From the IMG/VR virus record IMGVR_UViG_3300036715_000213, positions 1-64,000 of that record: a stretch of DNA of 64,000 nucleotides, one strand, 5' to 3'. The translations under genes and the position numbers were made by a program. This DNA comes from a virus. The notes beneath the pieces are model-generated. The model was not told where the DNA came from and ran no database searches. It saw nothing but the letters and a program-made list of their open reading frames with translations. Shown piece after piece: positions 6,584 to 58,781 of the stretch. The number at the start of each line of letters is the position of its first letter. The stretch's first letter is position 1.

Positions 6584-6631
6584 AATTATGCCTTCATCAG
6601 TGGGATTGAAAATTGAAATAGATTACCACTA

Positions 6632-7920: not shown

Positions 7921-7947
7921 AATATAAAGTCCTTCAAGTAAAACGTA

Positions 7948-8729: not shown

Positions 8730-8735
8730 GATGTT

Positions 8736-8764
8736 ATTATAACACAGAAACGAATAAAAGTGAA
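8736..8764 (-). promoter_or_regulatory. early promoter (TTCACT-N17-TATAAT, with TG extension)
   Basis: The -10 box ends 6 nt before the ATG at 8729. Confidence 0.75.
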
Positions 8765-8773
8765 TTAGGTGAT

Positions 8774-8971: not shown

Positions 8972-9015
8972 TCTTTTTCGCAATCAAAAATTTCAGTTCC
9001 AGAACACCATCCCAT
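8968..9015 (-). pseudogene. 15-codon remnant MGWCSGTEIFDCEKE*
   Basis: Has a GGAG SD and ATG, and its stop is coupled to the next ATG; looks like an internally deleted gene. Confidence 0.45.
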
Positions 9016-9018
9016 TAT

Positions 9019-11777: not shown

Positions 11778-11811
11778 AATTAAAAATCCTTTTTACTAAA
11801 TGGGATAAAAA

Positions 11812-12321: not shown

Positions 12322-12381
12322 AATCTCTCCTTGACTAATGGTAACATGAACATTACGAAATCAAAATAATGTGAAGATTAT

Positions 12382-12410
12382 TTGACCATACGGAAAAGTA
12401 TTGCTATAAT
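12382..12410 (+). promoter_or_regulatory. near-consensus sigma70 promoter on the + (antisense) strand
   Basis: TTGACC-N17-TATAAT with a TG extended -10. Confidence 0.6.
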
Positions 12411-12436
12411 TACTCTGTAGTGTTTAAGGATAGCAA

Positions 12437-12829
12437 CTATTGTAATGTTTGATGTGTCTCAAATGTAAAGACATCAGTTGATGGTTCTTCTAAAGTTTGA
12501 TTCATAGCTGATGGAATCTCCAGCTTATTCACTAATTTGACATACATCCGATGAGCATCAGGATGCATTGGTGACAATACCATAATAGACGTAGTCGGTA
12601 TAAAGAAGAGACGAGTCTTAGAGAATGGCATCCAGGACTGACTATTTATCTCATTACGCATTCCATTTTCATCCATAATAGGAATAGTTCGAACTAGAAC
12701 TGGACTTTCAACAATGATTCCATGCTCACGTTCGTCAACAAGAGTCACCATCAATTCCTCACCTGTGGTAAGTTTCATCGTATAAAGCAGTTGATTTGCT
12801 TGAGGAACTGATTCTAAGTTTTCGGTCAT
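12437..12829 (-). CDS. conserved hypothetical (Sm-like) protein downstream of uvsW
   Basis: KLTTGEEL, P.L, WMPFS motifs; ATGA overlap with the uvsW stop. Confidence 0.75.
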   Translation of the reverse strand: MTENLESVPQANQLLYTMKLTTGEELMVTLVDEREHGIIVESPVLVRTIPIMDENGMRNEINSQSWMPFSKTRLFFIPTTSIMVLSPMHPDAHRMYVKLVNKLEIPSAMNQTLEEPSTDVFTFETHQTLQ

Positions 12830-43457: not shown

Positions 43458-44204
43458 TCATCCCATAATAAAATCAAGGGGCGATAGTTTACCCATGATT
43501 TCGTTTTCAATATCTTCAGCCTCTTGTTTTCCTTCTTCGTACAATGCTTGTCCGTCTAGTGTTACACCACCGGGCAATGTAATACCACCGAATTTCTTGA
43601 TGTTGCCACCCCATTGACGTTTTAGCAATGCAGTAACATAGTGTTTTAGATTGTTGTCGTTCCAGAACTTTGTCGCATCATCTGGATCCAACGCTCTATA
43701 GCAATCAATGAGAATGTACTCGCCCTCAGCAATTTTAGCATTCCAGTTTTGATCGATGTACAATTTGCTAGTTAGCTTGTTCCAACGGAATTGCTTTTGA
43801 GTGTTTAAAATCTGATCAAGCAAATCTAAATGCATCATTGATTGTACATAGTATATCATTGATGTAGATGTCAAATCTCGGAGATCGTTCATACGCAATT
43901 GATACTGGACGTCAAAAATATTAGCATCAGAATTAGCTTGTGTTCCAGTAGTTGGGAATACACGATTTACACCAAAAATTAAATCCGGAAGTGTGATGTA
44001 TTTGTTAGTGATATCAGTAGCGGTTACTAAATGCTTTAGGTACACGCGCTCAATACCATCCCAATAGTAATCGCGGAAATATGCGATTGCATCGTCAACT
44101 ACATCGTCAGCTTGTTCATCAGTGATATTGATTTCAACAAGAGGTGCTCCAAGTTTACGGTAGCAATATTGAATTAGTTCGTCGCGACTTGTAACATTAG
44201 CCAT
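43458..44204 (-). CDS. gp13: neck protein
   Basis: SR.EL..YC.R.LG.P..EIN, YQLR.ND, Y.TAL.KRQWG.N..KF.G..LPGGVTL.G. Confidence 0.96.
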   Translation of the reverse strand: MANVTSRDELIQYCYRKLGAPLVEINITDEQADDVVDDAIAYFRDYYWDGIERVYLKHLVTATDITNKYITLPDLIFGVNRVFPTTGTQANSDANIFDVQYQLRMNDLRDLTSTSMIYYVQSMMHLDLLDQILNTQKQFRWNKLTSKLYIDQNWNAKIAEGEYILIDCYRALDPDDATKFWNDNNLKHYVTALLKRQWGGNIKKFGGITLPGGVTLDGQALYEEGKQEAEDIENEIMGKLSPLDFIMG

Positions 44205-44611
44205 TATTCTTCTCCAGAATTTACACTCAACGTTTTGTTCAGTGCTTCAAGAACTCGGTAGTTCTTTACTGTACATAATTCACACAATATTAGATTCTCA
44301 TGGTGTGCTGTAATGCCAACCATACGTGCTTCCATCTCGGAAAGCTTTTTGAGCAACTCAGTGATTTGTACCGATTGGGCAACATAAGCAGCTTCCATCG
44401 TAGATAAACGCTCACGTACTGCCTTAATTTCTTTGGCTTGTTCTTCGTAAGTATTGGACTGGATGTTATCGGCGGTGACTGATTTATGTGCTTTTGCTGA
44501 CTCGACGCGTTCCCGACGCATCCACCATCCAATAGATGTGGCGATTACAGCAATACCAGCAATTATTGTCCCACCAGTCTCCCCAAGTTCATTAATAAAA
44601 CTAGCTAGCAT
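44204..44611 (-). CDS. N-terminal TM + coiled-coil protein (possible lysis accessory)
   Basis: IIAGIAVIATSIGWW TM helix followed by a heptad coiled coil. Confidence 0.6.
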   Translation of the reverse strand: MLASFINELGETGGTIIAGIAVIATSIGWWMRRERVESAKAHKSVTADNIQSNTYEEQAKEIKAVRERLSTMEAAYVAQSVQITELLKKLSEMEARMVGITAHHENLILCELCTVKNYRVLEALNKTLSVNSGEE

Positions 44612-44792: not shown

Positions 44793-46100
44793 TCAACCAC
44801 GCGATACTAGAACGCCTGCGAAGTTGGTTACGTTAGTACCGAAGGCGACGACTGGTGTTGTACCAGTAGCCGTAACACGCAATTCGAATGTATCACCAAC
44901 TGCTGTGGTTTTAAACAGGTCAGTAATGCTTGCTGTGAGAGATGTAACTGATGCTCCGGTTACAGTCTTAGTGTAAACTGCTGCAGCATTCATCCATAAT
45001 TCTATAGTCATTGCAGTCAGTGCAGTTCCAGTAACTTGGACGTTACCAGTTAATTGATAGTAACCAATTACACCTGGAGTCCAACGGAATGTAGTTGTGC
45101 TATCGAAAACGCTAACGCTATCGAATGTTTCACCGTTGAATGGTAATACGACTGATGCTGCTGCACTTGTCAACGCAAATGTGGTTGTATTACGAAATGC
45201 ACGGAACACAGGTTCTGCTAAAGAGCCGTGCACGTGATCTTGACGTGCGAAACGAGTTGATGTACCAACAACTGCTGTTGCTGCTGCCGATACTGGAGTA
45301 GCTGAACCCGCTTGCCCAATAACAAACGCAGTAGTCGCTAATAATAGAGAACTGTTATCAACTGCTGGAGTTGATGTTGCTGTTGGAGTAACAAGAGCGG
45401 GACTTGAGTTATTTGCTTTTGTTGCAATGTTACCGTCTAGCTTATTGATAGCTTGGAGGATCGTATCAGTAACTGCTACAGTACCAGAACCTGATGCAAA
45501 ACCAGTTAGAACCTTACTAATTACAGATGCATTAGTTACAGTCGTTGCATTACCAGTTGAAGTAACTTCACCAGTTAGATTAGCGTTAGTAGCATCGTTT
45601 CCAATCAACTTATTGATAGCTTGGAGGATCGTATCAGTGGAAGCAACTACACCAGCGCCTGGAGATAATCCAGTTAGAACCTTACCAATTACAGTTGCAT
45701 TTGGAACTATAGTAGAATTACCAGTTGAAGTAACTTCACCAGTTAGATTAGCGTTTGTTGTTACAGTAGAAGCTAGAGTGGCGGTATTAGCATTTCCACT
45801 GAAGTTTGCGGCATACAAAGTGTCAGTGGATGGCTTGTAACGTAGATTAGTAGAGCTGATACGATACGGGACAGCACCAGTACCATTCGATGCAGTTGCA
45901 CCAAATGCCCACATCGGGAACACAAATGCTGTATTTGTAACGTCATCAGTAATCGCAGTGTTGGTTGTCAACAGATCTAACTGATCGGCAATTGACTTGA
46001 TATTTCCATCAATTTCCAGATTAGTCAGCGGCGTACCCTTAACCGTTGTGGTTGTTGGTACTGTCGGTGTTGACGACGCGCGGTATTTAATTTTTGCCAT
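44793..46100 (-). CDS. trimeric fibre with C-terminal C1q/TNF-like head
   Basis: KGTPLTN.EIDGN anchor, 56-aa repeat, FAR.DHVH motif; C-terminal F.A....LPF..E.FD....FD....FTP...GYYQ...F.G.LV. Confidence 0.75.
   Translation of the reverse strand: MAKIKYRASSTPTVPTTTTVKGTPLTNLEIDGNIKSIADQLDLLTTNTAITDDVTNTAFVFPMWAFGATASNGTGAVPYRISSTNLRYKPSTDTLYAANFSGNANTATLASTVTTNANLTGEVTSTGNSTIVPNATVIGKVLTGLSPGAGVVASTDTILQAINKLIGNDATNANLTGEVTSTGNATTVTNASVISKVLTGFASGSGTVAVTDTILQAINKLDGNIATKANNSSPALVTPTATSTPAVDNSSLLLATTAFVIGQAGSATPVSAAATAVVGTSTRFARQDHVHGSLAEPVFRAFRNTTTFALTSAAASVVLPFNGETFDSVSVFDSTTTFRWTPGVIGYYQLTGNVQVTGTALTAMTIELWMNAAAVYTKTVTGASVTSLTASITDLFKTTAVGDTFELRVTATGTTPVVAFGTNVTNFAGVLVSRG
45441..45757. repeat. 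tandem 168-bp duplication in the fibre shaft
   Basis: CTTATTGATAGCTTGGAGGATCGTATCAGT at 45441 and 45609; ACCAGTTGAAGTAACTTCACCAGTTAGATTAGCGTT also occurs twice. Confidence 0.9.
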
Positions 46101-46287
46101 TTATGTGTTCCAGTATTTTCTGCATCTGTTTCTTTAGTGTATTTACTTCATTCTGTAGACTATCAAAAGCGTCATGCTGCATCCGACTCTTCATGAAAGC
46201 CGCTTTGTCAACTACAACGATACTCCTATCGTCTTTCTTGTACAGCCCCTTGAGCGGTGATCCGTTACGATCAACTATCTGCTTCAT
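46087..46287 (-). CDS. small conserved coiled-coil protein downstream of VrlC
   Basis: GLYK.....IV..D...F + L..EV..LK pattern. Confidence 0.7.
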   Translation of the reverse strand: MKQIVDRNGSPLKGLYKKDDRSIVVVDKAAFMKSRMQHDAFDSLQNEVNTLKKQMQKILEHINGKN

Positions 46288-48443
46288 GTTGCGACGATAA
46301 TGCTACGGTATTGGTCAATAACCGGATATGAAATCTTATCATTCGAACTCAATACAATCTTAATGTCGTACATGTCGAATCCATCGAGATCGTCAATCTT
46401 AAACTCGTAGTCTTGATATTCGCCAAGTTTGCGTGCTAAGTTGCGGGCTGTGTCGCATGTCATCTCAACCCAATTACCACTCTTATGTGGTACAGTGCTG
46501 GCTGCTAATGAACTACGGAAGTAGACATTAAAAGATGTTGTTGCAATGCTACTAGCAGTAACAATAACGCGAGCGCCCTTGGAAATAGTTTCCAATTGGA
46601 ATGGCTGGCTAATGTAACGCGCATAAGCAGTCCCACCGCTTGGAGTCAACTCAGTTGCTTTGTCGAATGTCGATGCTGGGTTAGTCAGAATGTCATTGAC
46701 GTTATTATTTTCCAGTACCAAACGCGGTGTTGCACGTAAATCTAGCATTGGGGAAACGTTAACATTCTTTGATTCAAAATATAATAGCATTTCTGCGGAA
46801 GAATCACTACCGAAGAACAATTGCTCATTATCCAATGTAGCAATAACTGCTTCTTTGTCTAGGATAGTTGCTTGGCTCAATGAGATGTTTTCGTGTAAAC
46901 CAACAAGGTAGTTCTCATCAGTTGTGCGTAGGGTAGCGCTCAATCCTGTTTCATTCGGAACTATAGTATTCAACAGTGGAGCAACTGCTTGGTAACGACG
47001 GTTTAAACTTGTCGCGAAGATCGCTTCATCAATAACAGTTAAAGATGCACCGGATCCAGTTCCATCAGTAATCTTTACAGTTGGTGTAGTCATGTAACCA
47101 GTACCAGCATTTGTGATAGTCACAGTGTTAATCTTACCACCAGAAGTTGTAACTGTTGCTGTTGCACCAGTACCATCGCCAATGATTTGTACTGTTGGAG
47201 CCGAGTAATTGATACCACCATCGTCAATCTCAATCGCTTCCATACGTCCTGTTGATGACAAGATTCCAGTAGATGTTGCGTTGGTAGCGCCCAAGCTAAA
47301 TGTGAATGTGAAATCGTTAACCCGAGTTACAGTATATCCAGTTGAACTTGACAATATAGCAGATGGGATCCCACGGTATGTAGCACCTGTCAATCCACGT
47401 AGGATAATCGTATCACTAGTCTTAAAACCGTGTTGCATTGGCAACGTGCAAGTCACCAGAGGTGAGCTGTTTGTAACTGAGAAATACTTACCGGGAATAC
47501 GATCGTTTGGAGCAACTGCGCGCAACTTCAACGATGCTTGAGAAGAGATATCAAATTTGGCGCGATATATGTTGAACTTAATGTCTTGCGTTTGCTCAGC
47601 AGTCCATGTAATGTTGTTTTCCGATTTAAACATGGAACCAACGAATGGTTGTTCACTAATCGTCTTACCAGTTTCTATAGACTTTGCACCCATCTCAGAT
47701 GTGAAGGCATAGTATGAATTTGAGTTGGACAGCAGGACGAAACAGAAATCCTTATCTTCAGGCAAGTAGATTGGACGTGGGAAGATAAACTTTGTACCAA
47801 CCAATGCAGTATTGCTTGTGTTAACTGAGCTTGGATTTAACGAAACAAAAGACCATTCATTAACCAAGTCAGCTGCTGGATAACCGTTTTCTACATTACG
47901 CAATTCACAACGCACTGGAATTGACGCATCCTTCGCTTGAAAGAACACTTCAATCATCGTTACAAAACAACCACCCTTGATACCATAGGTGAAGAATGTC
48001 TGAGCAAGCGGATCGCCCGGCGGACGGGTTGTATTAACACGCACTACATTTTGTGTAATAACATTAATAGTTTTCTGAAATGTATCCAAGAAACCATTAG
48101 CAGTAAACAATGTAGTCGCAGAGCTAACTGCGCTTCCAGCAAATGCTTCAGTTTCATAGTTGGATGTATCAAGCAATTTGAAAATACGCTCACCAGTGTT
48201 AAATGTGTTCCCCGGCATGCGGAACTCACCAGTAATTTTACCAGCAGCGTCTGATACAATCTGATCACCTAAGTTCTTACCGTCTTGTTTAATAAATTCA
48301 TCCACGCTCTTAGTATCAAAGAATGCGTAGAATTTACTATTTGGTTTCAAGTCAGTTGCAGCAAACTTAATCGTCTGTGGACGAATAAAAGAAAGTGATT
48401 TATAACCAACCAAACTGGTACGTGATTTTGTACGTGTTACCAT
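46284..48443 (-). CDS. VrlC/DUF4815-like virion protein, C-terminal half
   Basis: FIRPQ.I.F....LKPN..FYAFFD, DPLAQTF, FF..KD...PV, GSMFKS.N..TWT..Q..D.KF, NVSP..D, ARYIS. Confidence 0.85.
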   Translation of the reverse strand: MVTRTKSRTSLVGYKSLSFIRPQTIKFAATDLKPNSKFYAFFDTKSVDEFIKQDGKNLGDQIVSDAAGKITGEFRMPGNTFNTGERIFKLLDTSNYETEAFAGSAVSSATTLFTANGFLDTFQKTINVITQNVVRVNTTRPPGDPLAQTFFTYGIKGGCFVTMIEVFFQAKDASIPVRCELRNVENGYPAADLVNEWSFVSLNPSSVNTSNTALVGTKFIFPRPIYLPEDKDFCFVLLSNSNSYYAFTSEMGAKSIETGKTISEQPFVGSMFKSENNITWTAEQTQDIKFNIYRAKFDISSQASLKLRAVAPNDRIPGKYFSVTNSSPLVTCTLPMQHGFKTSDTIILRGLTGATYRGIPSAILSSSTGYTVTRVNDFTFTFSLGATNATSTGILSSTGRMEAIEIDDGGINYSAPTVQIIGDGTGATATVTTSGGKINTVTITNAGTGYMTTPTVKITDGTGSGASLTVIDEAIFATSLNRRYQAVAPLLNTIVPNETGLSATLRTTDENYLVGLHENISLSQATILDKEAVIATLDNEQLFFGSDSSAEMLLYFESKNVNVSPMLDLRATPRLVLENNNVNDILTNPASTFDKATELTPSGGTAYARYISQPFQLETISKGARVIVTASSIATTSFNVYFRSSLAASTVPHKSGNWVEMTCDTARNLARKLGEYQDYEFKIDDLDGFDMYDIKIVLSSNDKISYPVIDQYRSIIVAT

Positions 48444-48461
48444 TGTATTCCTATTTTCTAG

Positions 48462-48469
48462 TATTTATT
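48462..48469 (-). promoter_or_regulatory. late promoter-like AATAAATA for the VrlC C-half
   Basis: In the 34-nt gap between the halves, followed by an AGGA SD. Confidence 0.55.
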
Positions 48470-48477
48470 ATACACTA

Positions 48478-51400
48478 TTAGAGTGATTTGTTGGAGTAAA
48501 AGTCCACGGATTTAATATTATGGTGCAAGATGAAGTTTCTATTAACATCACCAGCTAAGAAGCATTTGTTACCGCATGTAATGTGGCGAACTAATCCCAT
48601 ACCAATAAACTTAACATCAATAATCTCTTCCCAACGCAAAACACCGTTTAATTCAGTAACAGTGTGCTTGCCTAGCATATCCGGAGCATTGACTAAAGTT
48701 CCATTAATAGTTGGGATGGGTGCAGTAGAAGAACATGTTAATTTGACACCTAAAGTGGATGTCAGGCAATACAGAGGTTGTTCTTTAGTTTCAGCGAATG
48801 TAACTTCGTCAAAAGAACGTTTCCATGTATTTGGATCAACTGTTGGTATGATCATACCAACATTGATATCTTTAGCTTGCATTCCATTTTCCAGCCATGC
48901 ATCAAGAACAACACAGCCACCTCCACCATAGCTAGGAATTATAACTTGAAGCGGTAATGATGGAGGTAAGTATGCCCATCCCCATGGTCCTAGAACTGGA
49001 GGTGGAGGTGGAGCAATAATTGGTGCCGGCGCTGGAATTGGCGCTGGCGCTGGTGGAGGTGGAACAACTACTGGTGGCGCTGGGATTGGAATAATCACAG
49101 GAACTGGTGGTGTTGCTGCCACTGGTGGAGGTGTTACCTTAATCTCAACCTTTGGTACTGGTGGGATAATTACAACCGCTGGAGTGATGATTGGTGGAGT
49201 AATAATCACTGGACGTGGTGGTTGGATAAACACAAACTCAGTGATAGTCTCAGTTGATGTCTTAACGATATCAGCTAAGTTTTCAACTTCAGTCCAAGTG
49301 TCATCCTTTGGTACAATTTCCAGCGCGCCTTGCCAGCTAAACACAGCAAACGGGTTAATGTTGGTAATACGACTCGATACGCCTTGTGAAGCAAGGATAA
49401 CGTTTTCATAGTTCAGTGTTGCGATATCATTGATAATGGATACGTTAGTACCAACCGATACTGGAGATAACATTGTTTCAATACGATCAAACAATGGTTT
49501 AATCTTACCAGAAACATACGATACCTTAAATCCTGGATCAGTTACATCCGAGATAGCATCAGCATCGCTAAAGTTATCGACTAAGTAACCGCTCTTGTAA
49601 CGTGATAGTCCAGTTGTTGTGTCAACAATGTCATAGTTAACTGCGCTCTGTTCTGCTTCGGATAGAGTGATGTAATCTTCGATGTTAGCCACACGCTTGT
49701 CTAGAGAAGCAACATCGCGCATAGTGTAAACACGGTTATCATTCTTCTTAACTGTACAATCAATTGCCTTGGCAGTATAAGGAGGAACTGTAATAGTTGC
49801 CAGCTTGATAGAATCTGCTGGCAGTGGCTTCTCTTTTGGTACGTCAGCTGGAGTACCTGTTATAATACTTAATGTACCATCCTTGCTGAAGATAACAGAG
49901 TCAATACGACCAACATAGTGGCGAACAGTTGCAGTAATACGGGAATCATTCTGAACTAGCTTGCTTACAGAAGCGCCAGTACCGGTAAATGTTCCATCAG
50001 TACCAACGCGCGGACGGAAGTCTAACACATTGCGTAGGTTGTATGTCTTACGGTCGTTTTTACTAGTGTAAGATAACAGTGGAGAATCATAGTAACCAGA
50101 CATTGTGGTGTACGAGTCAACGCTGAAGTAATCTCCAGAATTATGGCTAAAGTAATCGTATGTGACTGTCACATTGTATGCTGGAGTTTGTGCTCCAGCT
50201 TTCAAAGTAATTGATCCACGATCGTAAAAATAATCAGTTTGACCATTATCGTATGAGTAGCTAGCAGTTACATCAAGTTCGTTTGCTCCACCAGCGTCTT
50301 GCACAACCTTAGTAACACGAACCAAGTCAGCATGTGGCAACACAAGTGTCGCAGAACTTGGATTTATTGCAGCAGATACAACATTCTGGACTAGAGTTTT
50401 TGTCTTTGGAGCACGTGATGCACCAGTTACAGTAGCAGCACAAAATACGCTCAATGTGCTACTTGCTGGGCTAATGCCGCTAAAGGATACAGATAGCCCG
50501 TCTGGAGCGACTGTTGCTGTTGACAATGCTTGGATACCGCTGGAAGTAACCAGCAACATGTTGCCTTCTTCCTTTGGATTGATTGTCATACCAGTTACAG
50601 TCATTGTACCAGCACCACCAGTAATAGTCACAGTTTGTTCATGATAAACAGTGTAAGAAATATCACTAACTTCGCTGTCACCCTTGGCGCTGTATGTGTA
50701 ATCATATGGAAGTGGAACTAGCAGATTGTTAGTTACATTCTTAACGATAACTTCTTTGTCAATAACCTTAGCAGTTCCGCCGGATGTCATACCAAGAATG
50801 GTATCACCAATCAGTGGAGTTGATTCACCCACGCAACGAGTGTTAACGTACAAGACGCCTTCAGGGCGCAGGTACTTTATAACGTTACCGCAGCGAGCTT
50901 CTGATTCAACTTCTTCGTTTAGAGTAAACGCCAAGCTGTTAGTCGAAACCACAGTTAATTTATGCAATACAGTAGCAATCTCTGATGCACCATATGTGAT
51001 GATACCAATCTCATCTACTGAGTGTGTTGGTCCCACAGCAATGTCAGTAACAAACATCTTGTAGATTGCATTGGTTGTGGTTGTGTTGGATTCAACAAAA
51101 TCAACTGCCAACAATGTAGCTGAACCAATAACAGTTCCAGCCGTAATATCCTTCAGTGTAACTGGCGAATGCAGCTTAAAGCTAGGTAGATTAGACAGTC
51201 CAGTAACGTAAAACGCTTGTCCAAAGGATGGGACAATATTAATAACGTTCTCTTGGATGGATTCAACATCACGCGCTTTGTTAACAGTCAGCAACGTATC
51301 TGCTATCTTTTCGTTCTCGAATCCCTTGATGTATGCCTTACCAGCAGCAATAGTGTAAATCATCTTAGATGAATCACCGCCAGCTGTAGAAACATAACGA

Positions 51401-52320
51401 CCGTCGTTCAGTTCTGATTTCAAGTGTTCACGAGTTGTTACTTTCAAACCAGTTGTAACATAGTCACCGTTTGTGTCATAGTTACGACGAGCCAGACCCT
51501 TGTCCAACTCATTATATTTTGGATAGCGGCTATGCTCTTCAAGAACGCCTTCATTATAGCGCATCAACTCGATGTAATCGTCATTTACAGCTACACTTAA
51601 ATCCAGAGTAACTAGGTTCAATGTAATTTGTAGACGATCTGCGCCTGGAGCCGCATAATTATATGAGCCCTGAGCTGGATCCAGCAACGTTGCGTCGTCA
51701 TCCGATGTTACAACGCTTTCAACGATTTGTAGCAATACGCGAGTGCTTGGAGATGCGCTGTACTTGGAAATAACAACTGATTGCTTATTAACAGTCGCGA
51801 ACGTGCCGTTTACATAGTAAACACCTTGGTCGATATTAGCAACTGCGGCTGCACCACATGGTGTTCCGCTTGCTGTGGTAAATGTAGTCGAGATGCCTTC
51901 AACAGTCAACACTTCACTCGCCAGGAATACCTTTTCACCGTTTGTACCGGAATTGCTATAGGAAACATACAGAGTATCAGGATCAGTCAAAGTCTTAGCA
52001 ATGCCCTTACGGATGATACCGCGCAAACCGGAAGTCGCACCAACAACAAACTTGCCTTCAAGTGTAGCAATATCGTAGGATGTATCAACCAACTTCACAT
52101 AACATACATTGAAGTCGGAATTGATGTTACCCGGAATAACTACGGAGCCATGCTTAAACACGTGATTGCCAAACTTAGCAATCTGATTCTTCAGTATTGA
52201 TTGAATCTGTGTTAGTTCACGAGCCTGAATACTATTACCCGGCTTAAACAGGATTTGATAGAATTGTTTAGACTCATCAAAGTCGTCATAGTATGGATTC
52301 GAATTTAAATTGATTGTCAT
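48478..52320 (-). CDS. VrlC/DUF4815-like virion protein, N-terminal half, with Pro-rich linker and C-terminal Hint domain
   Basis: NPYYDDFD, LFKPG..IQARELTQ.Q, APGADR, LDFRP, YTMRD..L..R, R.KSG..VD.F, NINPF.V; ends GGGG|C...HHN. Confidence 0.9.
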   Translation of the reverse strand: MTINLNSNPYYDDFDESKQFYQILFKPGNSIQARELTQIQSILKNQIAKFGNHVFKHGSVVIPGNINSDFNVCYVKLVDTSYDIATLEGKFVVGATSGLRGIIRKGIAKTLTDPDTLYVSYSNSGTNGEKVFLASEVLTVEGISTTFTTASGTPCGAAAVANIDQGVYYVNGTFATVNKQSVVISKYSASPSTRVLLQIVESVVTSDDDATLLDPAQGSYNYAAPGADRLQITLNLVTLDLSVAVNDDYIELMRYNEGVLEEHSRYPKYNELDKGLARRNYDTNGDYVTTGLKVTTREHLKSELNDGRYVSTAGGDSSKMIYTIAAGKAYIKGFENEKIADTLLTVNKARDVESIQENVINIVPSFGQAFYVTGLSNLPSFKLHSPVTLKDITAGTVIGSATLLAVDFVESNTTTTNAIYKMFVTDIAVGPTHSVDEIGIITYGASEIATVLHKLTVVSTNSLAFTLNEEVESEARCGNVIKYLRPEGVLYVNTRCVGESTPLIGDTILGMTSGGTAKVIDKEVIVKNVTNNLLVPLPYDYTYSAKGDSEVSDISYTVYHEQTVTITGGAGTMTVTGMTINPKEEGNMLLVTSSGIQALSTATVAPDGLSVSFSGISPASSTLSVFCAATVTGASRAPKTKTLVQNVVSAAINPSSATLVLPHADLVRVTKVVQDAGGANELDVTASYSYDNGQTDYFYDRGSITLKAGAQTPAYNVTVTYDYFSHNSGDYFSVDSYTTMSGYYDSPLLSYTSKNDRKTYNLRNVLDFRPRVGTDGTFTGTGASVSKLVQNDSRITATVRHYVGRIDSVIFSKDGTLSIITGTPADVPKEKPLPADSIKLATITVPPYTAKAIDCTVKKNDNRVYTMRDVASLDKRVANIEDYITLSEAEQSAVNYDIVDTTTGLSRYKSGYLVDNFSDADAISDVTDPGFKVSYVSGKIKPLFDRIETMLSPVSVGTNVSIINDIATLNYENVILASQGVSSRITNINPFAVFSWQGALEIVPKDDTWTEVENLADIVKTSTETITEFVFIQPPRPVIITPPIITPAVVIIPPVPKVEIKVTPPPVAATPPVPVIIPIPAPPVVVPPPPAPAPIPAPAPIIAPPPPPVLGPWGWAYLPPSLPLQVIIPSYGGGGCVVLDAWLENGMQAKDINVGMIIPTVDPNTWKRSFDEVTFAETKEQPLYCLTSTLGVKLTCSSTAPIPTINGTLVNAPDMLGKHTVTELNGVLRWEEIIDVKFIGMGLVRHITCGNKCFLAGDVNRNFILHHNIKSVDFYSNKSL
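48517..48915 (-). other. Hint (intein-like/BIL-type) domain, 133 aa
   Basis: CVVLDAW...AKDINVG, L.CSSTAPI (block B without His), V..IT.G...F.AG....ILHHN; +1 residue is Ile. Confidence 0.82.
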
Positions 52321-52321: not shown

Positions 52322-54130
52322 TTAACACTTTATGTATGTTTTGAGTGCCAGGCTTTGTTCCGATGTAAACTTGAACGGTACCTCGGATGCTACTGTTAGG
52401 ATGTCACCACTGTATTTATTGACTGCCGGAGAGGATATTAAATCAGTCGCAAACCAAGTTGTTGTACCATCTGATAGCGAACCCAACGGTGGAACATTGT
52501 TTCCCGATAGCGGTTGCAGGTATGCTGTTGTTGCATCAAACTTTACAACCAAATAGCGATAGTTATTCGCCGAGCGTAGTTCCATATCAGATGCCATTCC
52601 AGAAGTTGACAACATAGTCATCTTGTATGCCAACAATGCTTCTGATGTTGATGTAAACGAGTTGCTGTACAGTTGACGTGGATTCTTAATGACACCGTAT
52701 TGGCGGAAGTCTTGATTAATATCTGAGATTATCGAGTTAGCACTTAGAACTGAGCTGATACAAATCACATCTGCTCCCAGTTCATTCACTGCATCGTATC
52801 CATGTCCATAATATGGAGCCTTAATTGCGCTTACTGTTGCTGTTACTGGACTTCCACCTGTTGGCGCTTCTACTACAAAATCCGCATAGCTGTAACCAGA
52901 ACCAAATGTCAGCATCTTCACGCCAACCAATGTTCCAGTACTCATAATAGCCAGTGCAGTTGCACCCTTACCGTCACCAGTGATAGTAATCTTTGGTGTA
53001 ATTAGCGGATCGTACCCATTACCCGCAGTAGTAACCTTTGCTGCATAAATTCCACCAGCCACTGCTAGCTGCTCAACTACAGATTGGTCAGAGATTGTAT
53101 CGTTCAATCCAATGTTAGCTGTCAGACTTGCACCAGTACCTGTCCCACCAACTGTTAAAATCATGTAAGAGTAGCCAGTTCCATTGTTCTCAATAACAAC
53201 ATCAACAATTCCACCAGCGTAAACCACTGGAGTCAATACAGCGCCAGATCCATCGCCCTTTACAGCAATAGTGGAACTGTTGTTGCTTACATAGCTAATG
53301 CCTGGATCAACAACCAGAACTGATTGAATAACACCAGCAGAAACTATAGCAGTTAGGATTGCTCCACCACTATTCTCTGGATACTTGTGAGTTCCTGCTC
53401 CCGCAATAACAATTGTTGGAGCAGTTGTATATCCGGATCCGCCACTAACAATCTTAACACGGATAATGCTACCCGCTGCATCAATAACTGGAATCAGTAC
53501 AGCACCGCTCCCATCACCAGATACAGATAATGTAGTTGCGGATGCGCTTGAGTATCCAGAACCGGGAGCATTGATAATAATATCTTCAACTGCTCCACGA
53601 TTGTAGAAGGAATCACTGATCGCATTTTGAACTGGAATGTATTGACTATTTGTAAACTTGAATTGCTTAAAAGATGGGATTGAATACATGTATTTCCACA
53701 CGTAACCATCAGCGGCGCGGAACACTTCTAGCCCATCACCCGCTGATGGTTCAACTGTAGAAGCAACTCCACCATTGTTATCCAAGCACTTGTAAACACG
53801 AAAAGAGGTGTTTACAACGTAGAAGTTCAAATCCTCCATTGCTACTGTATCATCCCAACGGGCATAGGTAGTTCCAGTCACCCAATCGTAACGATTAGCA
53901 CATAGAGAAACATCGTTTGGCATGATTTTATTCATGTATAGCATATTCTCACGGATGCTTGAATCATTAGATAATGTCAATGCAGTAGTGCTTTCTGGCG
54001 GAAAATCCGGTACGCCCCAGCTAGATGCTTTACCTAGATAGTAGTAAAGGTTGCTCTTTTGGAGTTGAACTTCCTTAACAAACTGAGATGCTAGATTTGT
54101 GTGAAATTCTTGTTTGAGAATTTGTGACAT
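52322..54130 (-). CDS. gp8: baseplate wedge subunit with inserted beta repeats
   Basis: RYDW..GT.Y..WDD, FYV.N..F.VYKCLDNN.G..STVEP, DGY.WKYMY.I, GHG.DAV.EL, DFRQ.G..KNP, YSGDIL. Confidence 0.88.
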   Translation of the reverse strand: MSQILKQEFHTNLASQFVKEVQLQKSNLYYYLGKASSWGVPDFPPESTTALTLSNDSSIRENMLYMNKIMPNDVSLCANRYDWVTGTTYARWDDTVAMEDLNFYVVNTSFRVYKCLDNNGGVASTVEPSAGDGLEVFRAADGYVWKYMYSIPSFKQFKFTNSQYIPVQNAISDSFYNRGAVEDIIINAPGSGYSSASATTLSVSGDGSGAVLIPVIDAAGSIIRVKIVSGGSGYTTAPTIVIAGAGTHKYPENSGGAILTAIVSAGVIQSVLVVDPGISYVSNNSSTIAVKGDGSGAVLTPVVYAGGIVDVVIENNGTGYSYMILTVGGTGTGASLTANIGLNDTISDQSVVEQLAVAGGIYAAKVTTAGNGYDPLITPKITITGDGKGATALAIMSTGTLVGVKMLTFGSGYSYADFVVEAPTGGSPVTATVSAIKAPYYGHGYDAVNELGADVICISSVLSANSIISDINQDFRQYGVIKNPRQLYSNSFTSTSEALLAYKMTMLSTSGMASDMELRSANNYRYLVVKFDATTAYLQPLSGNNVPPLGSLSDGTTTWFATDLISSPAVNKYSGDILTVASEVPFKFTSEQSLALKTYIKC

Positions 54131-54573: not shown

Positions 54574-56225
54574 GAACCTACTCCTGTGGCGCTTACTCCG
54601 CTAACACCTAAGCGGAAGTTGACTGTTACATTGTTGATAGCTGTATTAGCTACAACACCATCCGGATTTGGAGATCCGTGAGTGTTGATAATAGCTACTT
54701 CACTATTTATTAACTCGAATTTCTTTATCAAAGTGCTACTGAACTTAGTTCCCGCTGGGTGAATCAAGTCAATAGAACTGCGGTACTCGTTGATGTCACG
54801 AGTAGTTTGTAATGAATATGCGTAGGCTTGGTAATACAGATTGTCGTGGATACGACTATTCTGATTAGAAATCAAACTACTATCATCACTGTATGTTGAC
54901 TTCTCTTTTGCGTAAGCTGAGTTGACTACTTTGATAGTCGCATAGGATGCTTCCCAAACGACTGGATCTTGTGTTTGTGATTCTTTAACCGGATCCAATA
55001 GCGGCTGATATGCTTGTAGAGTACCCATGTAATCTTCAAGTTGATAGTCTTCGTTGAAGAATTCACTGCCTCCAAGCTGGGTTAGAGAAATAACAACACC
55101 GTCACCAACTGGATCAGTGTTATCGTATATCGTTAGAGCTTGCTCATAGTGACCGTCATCCTGTTGAACTTGGGTAAATGTGTTTGAGTTACTTGAATTA
55201 TCCGCAATTGATTTGTACGATGAAATTGAGTATTGTTCTGCAGATAGTGGATATCCGTATTGTAGAATCTCAATACCTTCAAGTCCAGTATCAGCGTTTA
55301 CCTTTGTGACACGACAGATCGTAGACAATCCGCCAGTTGTTGCTGGAAGCTGGATAATCTGTCCTTTACGCCAATCAGCACCCTTGGTAACAGGAACAAC
55401 ACTGCTTGGAGTCGGCTTAACAACACCGGTGAATGTCTCAATGCTATTCTTAGTTACAGTAACCTTGTCTCCGATTTCAGCAGCATAGCCAACTGGCGGA
55501 ACAAAGTAGACAGCGTATGTATTTGTGTCTAGTGTTTTAATCTTCACTAGTTCAATAAGGTTCTTGGATGTACCGCTAACAAAGTGAAAGCCTAAGACTT
55601 CCGCATCAAGATTCGAATTGCGAGTGAGTACTACGTTCTGACTATCAGTAATGGAATCAATAACACCAACAAGCTCGCTATTGATATACAGGGAATTACC
55701 AATATTCGTAGAATCAAAAGCAGGCTTGCTGCTATGTATATTCTTAGAAGCCTTGCTAGCAGTGATACCGCCGACACCAGCCTTTTTAACTTGGGTTGTG
55801 ACAACAATTGGGTCATGCTCTAACAGTGTTCCAGTTTTCTTGGTTACATAGAAAAAGAAGTCACCAACTGCCTTTGCTCCAGACGCAACCAAATAGTCTG
55901 GACGAATGATTTCAACGTCATCACCAAAGTACGCATTAAAGAAATATGTGAACGCTTCTTCTGTACCCTTACGCGAGAAGAAATCCTTATTATTAAGGAT
56001 AAAATCCTTCACGCTCATGTTCTTTGGATCGCTAAATCCCTTGGCTACAATGTTCTTGTATAGATGGATGTAATCAGCATCCGCATTATCCAGAAATGCA
56101 GAGTCAATGGTCTGCAGACTTTCCATGTAGCGATAATACGCTTCAATGAAAGCTACAAGACCCGGATACTCTGCCTGGATAAACTCAGGCAGTTTTATAC
56201 TCGATAAGAGTGCTAATTTATTCAT
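54570..56225 (-). CDS. baseplate wedge protein (gp7-like)
   Basis: LPEFI..EYP..V.F.EAYY.YM, KGTE.AF..FF...F, IHD..YYQ.Y.Y, HPAG. Confidence 0.75.
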   Translation of the reverse strand: MNKLALLSSIKLPEFIQAEYPGLVAFIEAYYRYMESLQTIDSAFLDNADADYIHLYKNIVAKGFSDPKNMSVKDFILNNKDFFSRKGTEEAFTYFFNAYFGDDVEIIRPDYLVASGAKAVGDFFFYVTKKTGTLLEHDPIVVTTQVKKAGVGGITASKASKNIHSSKPAFDSTNIGNSLYINSELVGVIDSITDSQNVVLTRNSNLDAEVLGFHFVSGTSKNLIELVKIKTLDTNTYAVYFVPPVGYAAEIGDKVTVTKNSIETFTGVVKPTPSSVVPVTKGADWRKGQIIQLPATTGGLSTICRVTKVNADTGLEGIEILQYGYPLSAEQYSISSYKSIADNSSNSNTFTQVQQDDGHYEQALTIYDNTDPVGDGVVISLTQLGGSEFFNEDYQLEDYMGTLQAYQPLLDPVKESQTQDPVVWEASYATIKVVNSAYAKEKSTYSDDSSLISNQNSRIHDNLYYQAYAYSLQTTRDINEYRSSIDLIHPAGTKFSSTLIKKFELINSEVAIINTHGSPNPDGVVANTAINNVTVNFRLGVSGVSATGVGS

Positions 56226-58027
56226 CTTGACAATGAGAAGACGTGTTCAGTACGTGCGTTGCGGACTTGGGATAGCTTATCAACTAGGATATTTACCTTC
56301 ACATGTTCCGGCTTCATACGGACAATAACACCATTTGGTGGAATAACGTCGTACGAGCTTGGATAAAATACAAATTCAAACTGCTCATCGTATAGCGATG
56401 TTAATGTGATATTGTTTAGGTTAATCTTACCGTTGAAGTCAATAGTACCTACTGTCTCTTGATAGAAAGGTACACCGTTCGCATCTTCAGTGTAGAATTC
56501 AATATCAGATCCATTGTTCTTCAAGTATCCACGATCAGTATATCCCTTCATGTAGAAGCGAGTGCTAAAGAACGTTGCAGTATTACTTGATGCAATTGGG
56601 TTATAGAAGTTGATACTATAGTTCTTCTCTACATTATACATCGGCTTTATTGTGTAACGGATACGGATTGTGTTGATTGAGCTAACAATTGACAGCTCTG
56701 TTGAGTCAATCTTTGTAGTCAACACCGAGTGGCGATATGCGCTCTCAAACTTAGCTAGTGTATTTCCATAGTCGTTGATAACTGCGGTAACTTGATTAGC
56801 CAGTTCTCCAGCAGTGTAAGCAGTCTTACCTGGAGCGTAGTAAACGTTCGCTTCAATTTCTATGTTATAGTATGCTGGATCTACGAACTCTGGAGTTACT
56901 GTAACCATGCTACGACGTCCCAGAATACCTTGCTTAATCTCATTCTTTTCCAGCGCACTAAACACATCGCGACCGTAAGGTTTCGCTGAGATAAACACCT
57001 TACCGTATTGTGGTGGAATGTTATCTTGTCCGCCCCATACGTTAATCGACTCAATCTGCGGATACATTTCGGATACGACTGCTGCGTAGTCATTAGCAGT
57101 TACAGCACGGTTCTGGGCTTGATAGCTTAGTGGAGCAAAGAAGCGGATTGATTCCTTATCCTCTTCATCGGATCCCATTGCGCTTGCCAAGTTAGTGACA
57201 ATGTCATAACCCTTAGTAGAATCTAGTCCACCTGCGTATGAGAAGATAGCTGCTGCGTTTGCTGCAGCACCGCTCGAGATCAAATAACGCATTGTAACGA
57301 CGCAACCGTTTGGAACAACGGTACCAAATGTACCGTCACCGAATGTTACTTCGTACAAGTTATCCTCAACATGACGAATAAAGAACACGTTATCAGTGGA
57401 CTTTGTGTCAACAGTAGATTTAGCATTGTTGTATATTGTAGTGCTGCTATTTGATGGATCGAATACTGAGATCTTGATGGTAGTCGTATCTACGTTCAGT
57501 TCCGGAACAACATAGCGAGTCTCTGGATTAGCGACGTATGTAATCTTACCTAGAGAACCTTCGTATATTAGAACGTTTGAAAATGTGAAGAATGACTCGC
57601 TTGGGAGTTTAGTTATGCTAATTGGCTCAATTAGATTGAACGTAAACTGAGTATTATTTACTTCAGTTGTGAACGTTGCTCCGGCATCTAGAGTCAGGGC
57701 GTTGGAGCTAATTCCGTAGGTTCCAACGGTAATATCCACGTTTGCACGCGCGCTTGAAACGCTACGTGGAACATAGCCTAGCAGTTTAGCTAGTGAGGAA
57801 ATACTACTACGCTTGGATGCGCTATCAATAAACATCTCATTGATAGCCATATTCGTGTAAAGAGCATTGTAGTGCGTATTGTACGCCAACAGATCAATTA
57901 CAGTGGAAATAACAGAGCCGTCAAAGTCGTAATCAGCGAGCTCATCCTGATCTGATAGAAACATCTTTAGATTTTGCTTAATACTAGAAAAATCCAAGTC
58001 TCCAGTATTGATTAAACGGCTTGTCAT
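56222..58027 (-). CDS. gp6: baseplate wedge subunit
   Basis: LDF..IK.NLK.FL, DYDF.GS, LAYNTHYN, FGDG.FG, QNRAVT..DY, WGG.D..PP.YGKVFIS.KP. Confidence 0.95.
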   Translation of the reverse strand: MTSRLINTGDLDFSSIKQNLKMFLSDQDELADYDFDGSVISTVIDLLAYNTHYNALYTNMAINEMFIDSASKRSSISSLAKLLGYVPRSVSSARANVDITVGTYGISSNALTLDAGATFTTEVNNTQFTFNLIEPISITKLPSESFFTFSNVLIYEGSLGKITYVANPETRYVVPELNVDTTTIKISVFDPSNSSTTIYNNAKSTVDTKSTDNVFFIRHVEDNLYEVTFGDGTFGTVVPNGCVVTMRYLISSGAAANAAAIFSYAGGLDSTKGYDIVTNLASAMGSDEEDKESIRFFAPLSYQAQNRAVTANDYAAVVSEMYPQIESINVWGGQDNIPPQYGKVFISAKPYGRDVFSALEKNEIKQGILGRRSMVTVTPEFVDPAYYNIEIEANVYYAPGKTAYTAGELANQVTAVINDYGNTLAKFESAYRHSVLTTKIDSTELSIVSSINTIRIRYTIKPMYNVEKNYSINFYNPIASSNTATFFSTRFYMKGYTDRGYLKNNGSDIEFYTEDANGVPFYQETVGTIDFNGKINLNNITLTSLYDEQFEFVFYPSSYDVIPPNGVIVRMKPEHVKVNILVDKLSQVRNARTEHVFSLSR

Positions 58028-58416: not shown

Positions 58417-58781
58417 TAGTATTTCGCTTCCAAATCTGATATATCCGCAAACTGTTGTGCGAACGTTCCATCGGAGAATCCAGGTTTAGTTCCACCACCA
58501 TCGCCAGCGATTACATTTGGCGATCCTTCTGCATTAAAAGAACCACAAGCAATTTGATCCCCAACTCTTGCCAGCGACTTACCGTTAACAAATACAGTTG
58601 GTGCTCCCTTTGCTTGATGTGAATCGTGGCATTTACCGGAACAATGCACAATCCAATGATCACCAACTCGATGTGCCCCAAGATTATTTATGAACACATC
58701 TCCGGACGCTGAATCGTTTGGGCGCGGTGGCCAGGGTCCATGACCCGTACATATATCACCTAATCTTACTGCTGCTGGCAT
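58416..58781 (-). CDS. PAAR spike-tip protein (gp5.4-like) with short C-terminal extension
   Basis: MPAA.RLGD..TGH, AHRVGD, VFVNG...ARVGD..CGS...GSPNV. Confidence 0.92.
   Translation of the reverse strand: MPAAVRLGDICTGHGPWPPRPNDSASGDVFINNLGAHRVGDHWIVHCSGKCHDSHQAKGAPTVFVNGKSLARVGDQIACGSFNAEGSPNVIAGDGGGTKPGFSDGTFAQQFADISDLEAKY

What the first reader, a model, noticed from the sequence alone, without database searches (positions are those of the whole stretch)
46284..52320. VrlC/DUF4815 virion gene split in two, with the N-half ending Pro-linker-GGGG-Hint: possible self-processing or ligation system
Seen: motifs I recall as one DUF4815 polypeptide are divided between a 1280-aa and a 719-aa ORF, and the second has its own late-promoter-like motif and SD. 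At the break the first ORF carries ~95 aa of Pro/Val/Ile-rich linker, then YGGGG|C, a 133-aa Hint domain ending HHN, and a 12-aa tail starting with Ile. Block B lacks the usual His (CSSTAP). Established: Hint domains without a +1 Cys/Ser/Thr (BIL or hedgehog type) cannot splice canonically. They cleave, or activate the upstream residue as a thioester for transfer to an external nucleophile. Inference: a virion protein with an activated C-terminal poly-Gly on an extended arm could be covalently joined to the C-half, another virion protein or a host molecule, in a ubiquitin- or hedgehog-like manner.
Basis: partly seen in the sequence, partly recalled or inferred. Interest (0 to 1): 0.8.

Follow-up and report, generated by a model that had tools for sequence, protein, structure and literature searches.

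The report
Self-processing Hint cap on split baseplate protein
In an uncultured marine T4-like phage, the front half of a split baseplate protein ends in a proline stalk, four glycines and a genuine intein-like (Hint) domain from a large family that no library I searched names; it most likely cuts itself off, but no processing has been shown.

Summary
ORF1 (48478-52320, minus, 1280 aa) and ORF2 (46284-48443, minus, 719 aa) cover the front and back of one family profile (phrog_358). Melnitz and P-SSM4 encode the same protein as a single 2127/2415-aa chain.

ORF1 ends in a 98-aa stalk (39% Pro), then YGGGG, Cys1136, a 133-aa domain ending HHN1268, and a 12-aa tail. With an alignment, AlphaFold gives pLDDT 90.5, and the model matches inteins, BIL domains and Hedgehog (Z 16-18). 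No Pfam, NCBIfam or PHROG model detects the domain.

It belongs to a family of at least 700 clusters. The shared signature is a Gly run, Cys1, block B Ser-x-x-Ala (no His), HHN, a hydrophobic +1 and Lys at +2, mostly with a short tail.

The split is clade-wide and mostly Hint-less: of the 120 nearest stand-alone front halves, only this one carries this family. That C-terminus is a hypervariable site, where 12 relatives carry a different, Hedgehog-type Hint-like module. A 62%-identical relative has the stalk and no Hint. Nothing points to ligation to the back half.

Best reading: a type-A-BIL-like self-cleaving cap. Lys-directed ligation remains open. This scan has found the same module before on other phage DNA.

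The parts
49225..52320 (-). Front half of VrlC/DUF4815 baseplate protein, conserved core (ORF1 residues 1-1032)
   Evidence: Pfam PF16075 at 195.6 bits. phrog_358 positions 4-1121. 62% identical to the stand-alone relative P0278. Aligns to the fused Melnitz and P-SSM4 VrlC proteins.
48931..49224 (-). Pro/Val/Ile/Ala-rich stalk (residues 1033-1130, 98 aa)
   Evidence: 39% Pro and 79% P+V+I+A. A similar stalk is present in the Hint-less relatives P0278 and P0279. It therefore belongs to the host protein, not to the Hint module.
48916..48930 (-). Tyr-Gly-Gly-Gly-Gly (residues 1131-1135). Gly1135 is the -1 residue at the predicted scissile bond.
   Evidence: Read directly. In the family, -1 is Gly in 84 of 138 domains, and 105 of 138 have at least 3 Gly in the 8 residues upstream.
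48517..48915 (-). Hint domain, Cys1136 to Asn1268 (133 aa). Block B is Ser-x-x-Ala at 1197-1200. It ends His-His-Asn.
   Evidence: AlphaFold2 with alignment A1 gives pLDDT 90.5. Foldseek against PDB: NpuDnaB intein E 3.8e-8, with BIL2, Cth BIL and Hedgehog also matched. VIA-align: Z 18.4 to 1at0, 17.9 to 6riz, 17.7 to 4o1r. The window's copy carries all 20 invariant or near-invariant residues of alignment A1.
48481..48516 (-). 12-aa tail IKSVDFYSNKSL (+1 Ile, +2 Lys), followed by TAA TAG at 48475-48480
   Evidence: In the family, +1 is L/I/V/A/M in 108 of 138 and +2 is Lys in 111 of 138, with Lys at +1 in 15 more. The median tail is 15 aa.
48444..48474 (-). Intergenic spacer with a late-promoter-like ATAAATA (48462-48468) and AGGA (48449-48452) before the ORF2 ATG
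   Evidence: The motif is not statistically enriched in the window, so this is promoter-like only.
46284..48443 (-). Back half of VrlC as a separate gene (ORF2, 719 aa)
   Evidence: Matches phrog_358 in three stretches at E 4.6e-116, the best at positions 1316-1583. 98% coverage of the rear of the fused Melnitz protein. More than 120 stand-alone homologues at 36-62% identity. The N-terminus is conserved across the clade.

Best explanation
ORF1 is made as a precursor. It consists of the VrlC front half, a ~100-aa polyproline-type stalk, Gly4, and a 133-aa Hint domain with type-A-BIL-like termini (Cys1, His-His-Asn, no +1 nucleophile).

Shown: the fold, the family signature and the genomic setting.

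Inferred: Cys1136 makes an N-to-S acyl shift at Gly1135-Cys1136, and the thioester is resolved mainly by hydrolysis. This frees a mature 1135-residue front half ending ...YGGGG, and releases the Hint plus tail. Asn1268 cyclisation can independently cut off the 12-aa tail. As in type A BILs, a fraction may be re-joined to the tail.

The Hint is a portable C-terminal cap sitting at a hypervariable, probably exposed end of the protein. It is not the cause of the VrlC split, nor a repair for it. The split is an older, clade-wide feature, and the back half is translated from its own start.
For: - Fold: the model is confident (pLDDT 90.5). It matches mini-inteins, BIL domains and Hedgehog over the whole domain.
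- Catalytic-type positions are kept across a family that is otherwise 30-45% identical. The counts are Cys1 138/138, HHN 133/138 and Gly at -1 84/138. All A1 invariants are present in the window's copy.
- The family is large and sits at C-termini. It has 700 representative clusters at E<=1e-3, with a median tail of 15 aa.
- It caps unrelated proteins. Examples are hypothetical proteins in baseplate/virion gene blocks of Xanthomonas phages, a Phage-tail_3/Rcc01698-like protein, and bacteriocin-like small proteins.
- The same site carries other modules. 12 of the 120 nearest relatives have a second, Hedgehog-type Hint-like module there. It has a Gly/Ser run before CFTG.T and a T-x-x-H motif but no HN, with sub-threshold Pfam Hint hits. 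What both types share is the element needed for cleavage at the domain's N-terminus.
- Mechanism precedent: type A BILs mostly cleave and can splice (PMC4031507; PMC7765530).
Against: - No processing has been observed for any family member.
- The block-B His, which normally helps the first acyl shift, is replaced by Ala in 129 of 138 domains. The chemistry may therefore differ or be slow.
- Lys at +1 or +2 is present in 126 of 138 domains, and the tails of VrlC-linked copies have semi-conserved ends (aromatic-x-D/E/N-K-K). Neither is explained by simple hydrolysis and discard.
- Hydrolytic removal gives no obvious benefit to the phage.
Confidence: 0.55

Rival explanations
1. Cis-ligation (BIL-type splicing). 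The Gly1135 thioester is captured within the same chain. The nucleophile is either the alpha-amine of Ile1269, freed by Asn cyclisation (the type A BIL route), or the epsilon-amine of Lys1270 (an isopeptide, as in BUBL BIL2). The mature front half would then keep the 12-aa tail on its Gly4 end, and only the Hint would be lost.
For: - Lys at +2 in 111 of 138 domains, and at +1 in 15 more. It lies outside the part of the model that aligns to inteins (model residues up to about 143-146; Lys is 145).
- The terminal Asn is kept in all 138 full-length domains, 133 of them as HHN.
- Tails show subgroup conservation. Examples are EYDKK, YWDKK and NFEKK in VrlC-linked copies, and the Cys-rich CCYCG...PNCC tails in another subgroup.
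- The closest relatives P0278 and P0279 end in GGG plus 12-13 aa after the same stalk, like a Hint-less allele.
- Precedents: PMC4031507 and PMC8616854.
Against: - In tested type A BILs cleavage products dominate (PMC4031507).
- The tail of P0278 shows no clear similarity to the window's tail.
- Gly-rich ends are common in this clade anyway.
- Lys could instead serve Asn cyclisation or folding.
Confidence: 0.2
2. Trans-conjugation. The activated Gly4 end on the stalk is transferred to an external nucleophile, such as the VrlC back half, another virion protein or a host surface molecule. This would be a ubiquitin-, Hedgehog- or thioester-adhesin-like reaction, and it is the first reader's idea.
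For: - BIL2 conjugates a Gly-ended domain to lysines of other proteins (PMC8616854).
- The Gly run is part of the module family-wide.
- Front half with Hint, followed at once by the back half, recurs in L037 and L034.
- The Hedgehog-type modules at the same site end in an amphipathic helix-like stretch, reminiscent of a sterol-recognition-type adduct-binding region. This last point is my inference.
Against: - Most relatives with the same split have no Hint at all.
- The back half's N-terminus follows the clade consensus, with Val at position 2 and no Cys/Ser/Thr.
- The module caps many proteins that have no split partner.
- No acceptor has been identified.
Confidence: 0.08
3. Non-catalytic Hint. 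The domain has lost processing activity (no block-B His). It stays on the virion as a knob at the end of the stalk and acts as a binding or display domain.
For: - The block-B His is absent.
- The same site carries display-type modules in relatives, namely Calx-beta in P0370 and DUF4214 in P0360 (precomputed Pfam).
Against: The conservation falls on Cys1, Gly at -1 and the terminal His-His-Asn, in a family otherwise 30-45% identical. That pattern is hard to explain without chemistry at both junctions.
Confidence: 0.12
4. Artefact. The split is an assembly or sequencing error, or the two ORFs are joined by frameshifting or readthrough, which would make the Hint an internal intein of a fused protein.
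For: Fused VrlC is the norm in isolated Kyanoviridae.
Against: - Two consecutive stops, and a different reading frame for ORF2.
- The ORF2 start aligns with the conserved start of more than 120 stand-alone homologues.
- The same stop-then-restart arrangement is seen in L004, L005, L034 and L037.
- Short tails after the domain are the family norm.
Confidence: 0.02

Closest known systems
Type A bacterial intein-like (BIL) domains (Pfam PT-HINT PF07591; e.g. Clostridium thermocellum BIL, PDB 2LWY)
   Same: - Hint fold (Z 16.6, rmsd 2.1 over 129 residues).
- Cys1, C-terminal His-Asn and no +1 nucleophile.
- Sits in a variable region of a non-conserved protein.
- Expected to cleave at either end and possibly to re-ligate its flanks (PMC4031507).
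   Different: - No member of the alignment hits PF07591 or any Hint Pfam model.
- Block B has Ala instead of His.
- It has a Gly run upstream and a near-invariant Lys at +2.
- It usually lies within about 15 residues of the protein's C-terminus.
BIL2 domain of the Tetrahymena thermophila BUBL1 polyubiquitin-like locus (PDB 6Y75, 6TMM)
   Same: - Hint fold (Foldseek E 2.2e-7; Z 16.1).
- Gly-Gly type residues precede Cys1.
- There is a lysine in the C-flank.
- It is documented to join a C-terminal Gly to a Lys epsilon-amine (PMC8616854).
   Different: - The N-flank here is a Pro-rich stalk of a baseplate protein, not a ubiquitin-like domain.
- BIL2 keeps a catalytic block-B His (H69).
- Sequence identity is only 14%.
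- No conjugation is shown here.
Mini-inteins (NpuDnaB 4O1R, gp41-1 6QAZ/6RIZ, Ssp DnaB 1MI8)
   Same: - These are the best structural and sequence matches. They have 22-24% identity, Foldseek E as low as 3.8e-8, and Z 17.7-17.9.
- Cys1 and a terminal (H)HN.
- The size is similar, about 130-140 aa.
   Different: - The +1 residue is Ile, and Cys/Ser/Thr occurs in only 6 of 138 family members.
- There is no block-B His.
- It is not inserted in a conserved catalytic site of a replication-type protein.
- It has no homing endonuclease.
Hedgehog/Hog autoprocessing domain (PDB 1AT0) and type B BILs
   Same: - Top VIA-align match (Z 18.4, rmsd 1.9 over 128 residues).
- It sits at the C-terminus of a precursor and is preceded by Gly-Cys.
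- It would release an N-terminal product.
   Different: - The window's domain keeps the His-Asn end.
- It lacks a sterol-recognition-type extension.
- A different, Hedgehog-like module does occur at the same site in 12 relatives.
C-terminal intramolecular-chaperone autoprocessing domains of phage tail spikes and fibres (Peptidase S74 type; from my own knowledge)
   Same: A C-terminal domain of a phage tail protein that removes itself after it has served during folding or assembly.
   Different: The fold and chemistry are unrelated (Ser-Lys dyad, trimer-dependent). No similarity to it was found here.

Membership tests
Hint (Hedgehog/intein) superfamily | Hint beta-fold over the whole domain | tested here: met
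   AlphaFold2 pLDDT 90.5. 60 PDB matches at E<=1e-3; every row of the best-50 table printed is an intein, BIL or Hedgehog entry. 30 chains at Z>=8, every one a Hint-fold entry.
Hint (Hedgehog/intein) superfamily | Nucleophile (Cys/Ser) as the first residue of the domain | tested here: met
   Cys1136. Cys1 is present in 138 of 138 full-length family domains.
Hint (Hedgehog/intein) superfamily | Block B Thr-x-x-His | tested here: not met
   The Ser is kept, but the His is Ala (Ser-x-x-Ala in 129 of 138). This was aligned to the SEEH motif of the gp41-1 intein.
Hint (Hedgehog/intein) superfamily | Autoprocessing activity | not testable with these tools
   This needs expression with Cys1136Ala and Asn1268Ala controls.
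Canonical (class 1) intein | Cys/Ser/Thr at +1 of the C-extein | tested here: not met
   The +1 residue is Ile1269. In the family only 6 of 138 have Cys/Ser/Thr at +1.
Canonical (class 1) intein | C-terminal His-Asn | tested here: met
   His-His-Asn at 1266-1268. HHN is present in 133 of 138.
Canonical (class 1) intein | Inserted within a conserved host protein that has intein-free alleles | tested here: inconclusive
   The domain lies after a linker, 12 aa from the C-terminus. The 62%-identical P0278 has the stalk, then GGG and 12 aa, with no Hint. The two tails are not clearly homologous.
Type A BIL / Pfam PT-HINT (PF07591) | Cys1, C-terminal His-Asn and no +1 nucleophile | tested here: met
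   The definition is taken from PMC4031507 and PMC7765530.
Type A BIL / Pfam PT-HINT (PF07591) | Recognised by the family's sequence model | tested here: not met
   No Pfam hit for the window's domain at E<=10. None of the 39 aligned members hits any Hint model at E<=0.1.
Type A BIL / Pfam PT-HINT (PF07591) | Located in variable regions of non-conserved proteins | tested here: met
   The appendage after the front-half core varies from 0 to 446 aa among the 120 relatives and falls into many unrelated types.
BUBL-type conjugating BIL | Ubiquitin-like domain ending Gly-Gly as the N-flank | tested here: not met
   The Gly4 is present, but the N-flank is a stalk with 39% Pro, not a ubiquitin-like domain.
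BUBL-type conjugating BIL | Lysine nucleophile that captures the thioester | tested here: inconclusive
   Lys1270 (+2) is present and is conserved in 111 of 138. Its role is unknown.
VrlC / DUF4815 baseplate protein | Pfam PF16075 above its cut-off, and phrog_358 coverage | tested here: met
   195.6 bits against a cut-off of 30. ORF1 covers the front of phrog_358 (positions 4-1121) and ORF2 matches its rear, best stretch 1316-1583.
VrlC / DUF4815 baseplate protein | Position after the wedge genes in a T4-type baseplate block | tested here: met
   gp5-like, gp6-like and wedge-subunit genes lie upstream. The order is the same in Melnitz and P-SSM4. VrlC is described as replacing gp7 in PMC7029224.

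The most novel reading that the evidence does not exclude
The Gly-run / Hint / hydrophobic-Lys module is a natural single-turnover protein ligase. The Gly thioester made by Cys1 would be captured by the conserved lysine just behind the domain, or by a lysine of another virion or host protein. This would leave an isopeptide-branched or cross-linked end on a phage baseplate protein. It would amount to enzyme-free, ATP-free, ubiquitin-like conjugation that is widespread in phages and in bacteriocin-like bacterial proteins.
Probability: 0.17. Interest if true: 0.85.

Novelty: new variant of a known kind. Interest (0 to 1): 0.6.

Why it matters
If the module is active, it defines a large Hint class (at least 700 clusters at 50% identity). 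I found it in no domain library or paper that I searched. It works without the block-B histidine and has a signature lysine behind the domain.

That would extend the known chemistry of intein-like domains. It could also give a compact natural tool for C-terminal cleavage or Gly-to-Lys ligation.

For phage biology, it shows that the C-terminus of the VrlC front half is a hot spot for exchangeable modules. VrlC is a core baseplate protein of abundant marine myophages.

Tried and rejected
- Single-sequence AlphaFold2 gave an unusable model (pLDDT 30).
- Pfam, NCBIfam and PHROG scans of the domain and of 39 members gave no Hint family.
- Megablast of the locus against isolated phages found no match.
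- Sequence searches against PDB gave only weak intein hits, at E 0.18-0.9.
- The search for related loci with alignment A1 failed, because it had no conserved 7-10 column stretch.
- The genome contigs pattern scan was mostly chance. Only 10 of 120 loci hold the true domain. Those I matched to a record title (8 of 10) are beta- or gammaproteobacteria.
- I asked whether VrlC-linked Hints were acquired independently. The Hint tree scatters them (5 changes for 6 rows, and well-supported branches force at least 2). The AU test does not reject a single clade (p 0.10). The result is inconclusive.
- Base composition gives no clear sign of recent transfer. Hint GC is 0.38, against 0.42 for the core.
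- I rejected the idea that readthrough or frameshifting joins the ORFs (and the family tail lengths).
- The ESM Atlas gave only sub-0.9 leads, to unnamed clusters and to viral PT-HINT/Intein_splicing clusters.
- The cluster look-up gave only 'hypothetical protein' names.
I could therefore not fetch the contexts of the database proteins.
The Hint and back-half pairing was never tested.
- I found no paper describing this module.

Full report
**Setting.** The window is the first 64 kb of a 76-kb IMG/VR viral contig, estimated 43% complete. The genes around the finding lie on the minus strand and form a T4-type baseplate block. It holds a gp5-like hub/lysozyme (58781-61303), a gp6-like wedge protein (56222-58027) and a further wedge subunit (52322-54130). 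The nearest isolated phage for the back half is the marine Methylophilales phage Melnitz, family Kyanoviridae. In pelagimyophages and cyanomyophages VrlC is described as replacing T4 gp7 in a two-layer baseplate (PMC7029224).

**Observation.**
- Pfam DUF4815 hits ORF1 only. The PHROG family phrog_358 has 2056 profile positions; ORF1 covers 4-1121, and ORF2 matches it in three stretches, the best at 1316-1583.
- In Melnitz and P-SSM4 the gene is one ORF of 2127 and 2415 aa, directly after the wedge gene.
- BLAST places ORF1 up to Melnitz residue 1300 and ORF2 from residue 1398. The break therefore falls in an inter-domain linker of about 100 aa.
- The junction reads TAA TAG, then 34 nt containing ATAAATA and AGGA, then ATG in another frame.
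- The promoter-like motif is not enriched in the window overall, so I call it promoter-like only.
- ORF1 residues 1033-1130 are 39% proline. They are followed by YGGGG, Cys1136, 133 residues ending His-His-Asn1268, and the tail IKSVDFYSNKSL.

**Is it a Hint domain?**
- No Pfam, NCBIfam or PHROG model sees it, in the window or in 38 relatives.
- A single-sequence fold failed.
- With a 39-sequence alignment (A1), AlphaFold2 gave pLDDT 90.5.
- Foldseek matched the NpuDnaB intein (E 3.8e-8), the Ssp DnaB mini-intein, Tetrahymena BIL2, the C. thermocellum BIL and Hedgehog.
- An independent all-against-all structural search gave Z 18.4 to Hedgehog 1AT0, 17.9 to the gp41-1 intein and 17.7 to NpuDnaB. 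All 30 chains at Z>=8 are Hint folds, and the next unrelated fold scores 3.8.
- The profile alignment to gp41-1 puts the family's Cys-Ser-x-x-Ala-Pro on the intein's block B (Ser-Glu-Glu-His). The block-B histidine is therefore replaced by alanine.

**The family.** A full HMMER scan of 1.84 billion representatives found 700 clusters at E<=1e-3 and 306 at E<=1e-10. I analysed 138 full-length domains.

| Feature | Count (of 138) |
|---|---|
| Cys at position 1 | 138 |
| Gly at -1 | 84 |
| At least 3 Gly in the 8 residues upstream | 105 |
| Block B Ser-x-x-Ala | 129 |
| Ends His-His-Asn | 133 |
| +1 is L/I/V/A/M | 108 |
| +1 is Cys/Ser/Thr | 6 |
| +2 is Lys | 111 |
| Lys at +1 instead | 15 |
| Tail longer than 60 aa | 30 |

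- The median tail is 15 aa.
- The window's copy has every invariant and near-invariant residue of A1.
- The module caps unrelated proteins. Examples are hypothetical proteins inside baseplate/virion blocks of Xanthomonas jumbo phages, a Phage-tail_3/Rcc01698-like tail protein, other large virion proteins in viral contigs, and small bacterial proteins with double-glycine-type leaders and glycine zippers.
- In bacterial genomes the true domain occurred in 10 of the 120 pattern loci. Those I matched to a record title (8 of 10) are beta- or gammaproteobacteria.
- Database names are only 'hypothetical protein'.

**Is the Hint tied to the split?** Front half, Pro-rich linker, Gly run, Hint, stop and a separate back half recur in two divergent viral contigs. 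These are L037 (3080-7600 then 7619-10789) and L034 (4685-10396 then 10410-13229). Even so, the split itself is a clade character.
- More than 120 stand-alone back halves were listed at 36-62% identity with mostly full coverage, together with the 120 best stand-alone front halves at 39-64%.
- After the conserved core, these front halves carry appendages of 0-446 aa of many unrelated kinds.
- 18 front halves have fewer than 30 aa of appendage.
- 12 have a different, Hedgehog-type Hint-like module. It has a Gly/Ser run before CFTG.T and a T-x-x-H motif but no His-Asn, with sub-threshold Pfam Hint hits at E 7e-7 to 1e-4. L005 is an example.
- 10 have a 'GGGKIIC' module, and 7 have a 'GKILCT' module.
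- Precomputed Pfam lists Calx-beta on one relative (P0370) and DUF4214 on another (P0360).
- Only the window carries this Hint family among those 120.
- The closest relative, P0278, is 62% identical into the stalk. It has the same Pro-rich stalk, then GGG and 12 residues, with no Hint.
- L004 has the split and no Hint.
- The back half's N-terminus in the window follows the clade consensus and offers no Cys/Ser/Thr at position 2.

The Hint is therefore one of several exchangeable caps at a hypervariable end. It is not a device linked to the split.

A tree of Hint domains scatters the six VrlC-linked copies, but the AU test does not reject one origin (p 0.10).

**Mechanism.** The termini match type A BIL domains: Cys1, His-Asn and no +1 nucleophile. 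Type A BILs form the N-terminal thioester, cleave at either end, and can re-ligate their flanks through the freed alpha-amine, with cleavage products dominating (PMC4031507; PMC7765530).
- I take Cys1136-dependent self-cleavage at Gly1135|Cys1136 as the most likely outcome (0.55). It would leave a stalk ending in Gly4.
- Two different Hint types recur at this site, and both share the elements needed for cleavage at the domain's N-terminus. This favours release of the N-terminal product as the selected activity.
- The near-invariant Lys behind the domain is not explained by plain hydrolysis. Nor are the retained Asn and the subgroup-conserved tails.
- With BIL2 as a documented Gly-to-Lys isopeptide precedent (PMC8616854), cis-ligation to the tail stays a serious rival (0.2). 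Transfer to another protein is a minor rival (0.08).
- A non-catalytic knob (0.12) is disfavoured by where the conservation falls.

**Novelty.** The fold and the general logic are known. This family's signature appears in no library or paper that I could search. Its occurrence on a core baseplate protein of abundant marine myophages is new in that sense too. The earlier-findings index shows that this scan has met the same Gly-Hint-Lys module at least eight times on other phage DNA. Those notes agree with what I found independently.

**Limits.** The contexts of the database proteins and a Hint/back-half model were therefore not obtained.

Noticed in passing
Relatives P0047, P0052, P0068, P0086, P0092, P0105, P0128: These small bacterial proteins combine a double-glycine-type leader (MREL..EL..VSGG), a glycine-zipper region, a Gly run, this Hint domain and a Trp/Asp-rich tail. 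They look like bacteriocin-like precursors whose C-terminus is processed by the same module.
   Followed up: partly
P0034, P0043; L008:1-1353, L009, L011:909-2267, L016: A sub-family with no Gly run. Its -1 residue is Cys, and its 20-24-aa tail is Cys-rich (IKCCYCG..PNC.W..PNCC). It is found in 170-350-kb viral contigs.
   Followed up: no
P0010, P0014, P0029, P0035, P0041, P0046, P0101: These proteins carry tandem copies of the domain. The second Cys1 lies only 5-6 residues after the first His-His-Asn (HHN-KK-x-G-F/Y-C).
   Followed up: no
Relatives P0299, P0302, P0315, P0320, P0335, P0336, P0342, P0346, P0390, P0394, and P0280, P0282, P0316, P0317, P0322, P0331, P0369: Two further recurrent C-terminal modules occur on VrlC front halves. 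Each begins with a Gly run and then K-I-I/L-C ('GGGKIICxELY', 'GKILCTAMNDYYG'), and each ends in a basic amphipathic stretch. Pfam does not recognise them, and their function is unknown.
   Followed up: partly
L005:4077-6626 and relatives P0308, P0310, P0326, P0328, P0330, P0332, P0333, P0340, P0344, P0347, P0351, P0378: A Hedgehog-type Hint-like module sits at the same site as the window's Hint. It has a Gly/Ser run before CFTG.T and a T-x-x-H motif, with no terminal His-Asn. It is followed by ~80 aa ending in a hydrophobic/basic helix-like stretch (..ILFGFLKFVGSILLKKK). It was not folded here.
   Followed up: partly
L005:2732-4255 and 4077-6626: In this related contig the front half is itself in two overlapping ORFs (507 and 849 aa). 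tblastn coverage is continuous across them. This is either a frameshift or a sequencing error.
   Followed up: no
Tails of VrlC-linked copies: window 48481-48516; L037, L034, L022, L035; P0005, P0007, P0009: The tails end in an aromatic residue, then x-D/E/N-K-K (EYDKK, YWDKK, NFEKK, NYDKN, SWKKK, LDKK). The window's tail ends FYSNKSL. This suggests selection on the extreme C-terminus.
   Followed up: no
window 44793-46100 (-) and 44204-44611 (-): Two ORFs (435 and 135 aa) directly downstream of the VrlC back half have no PHROG match. They sit where pelagimyophages carry their variable host-recognition cluster (PMC7029224).
   Followed up: no
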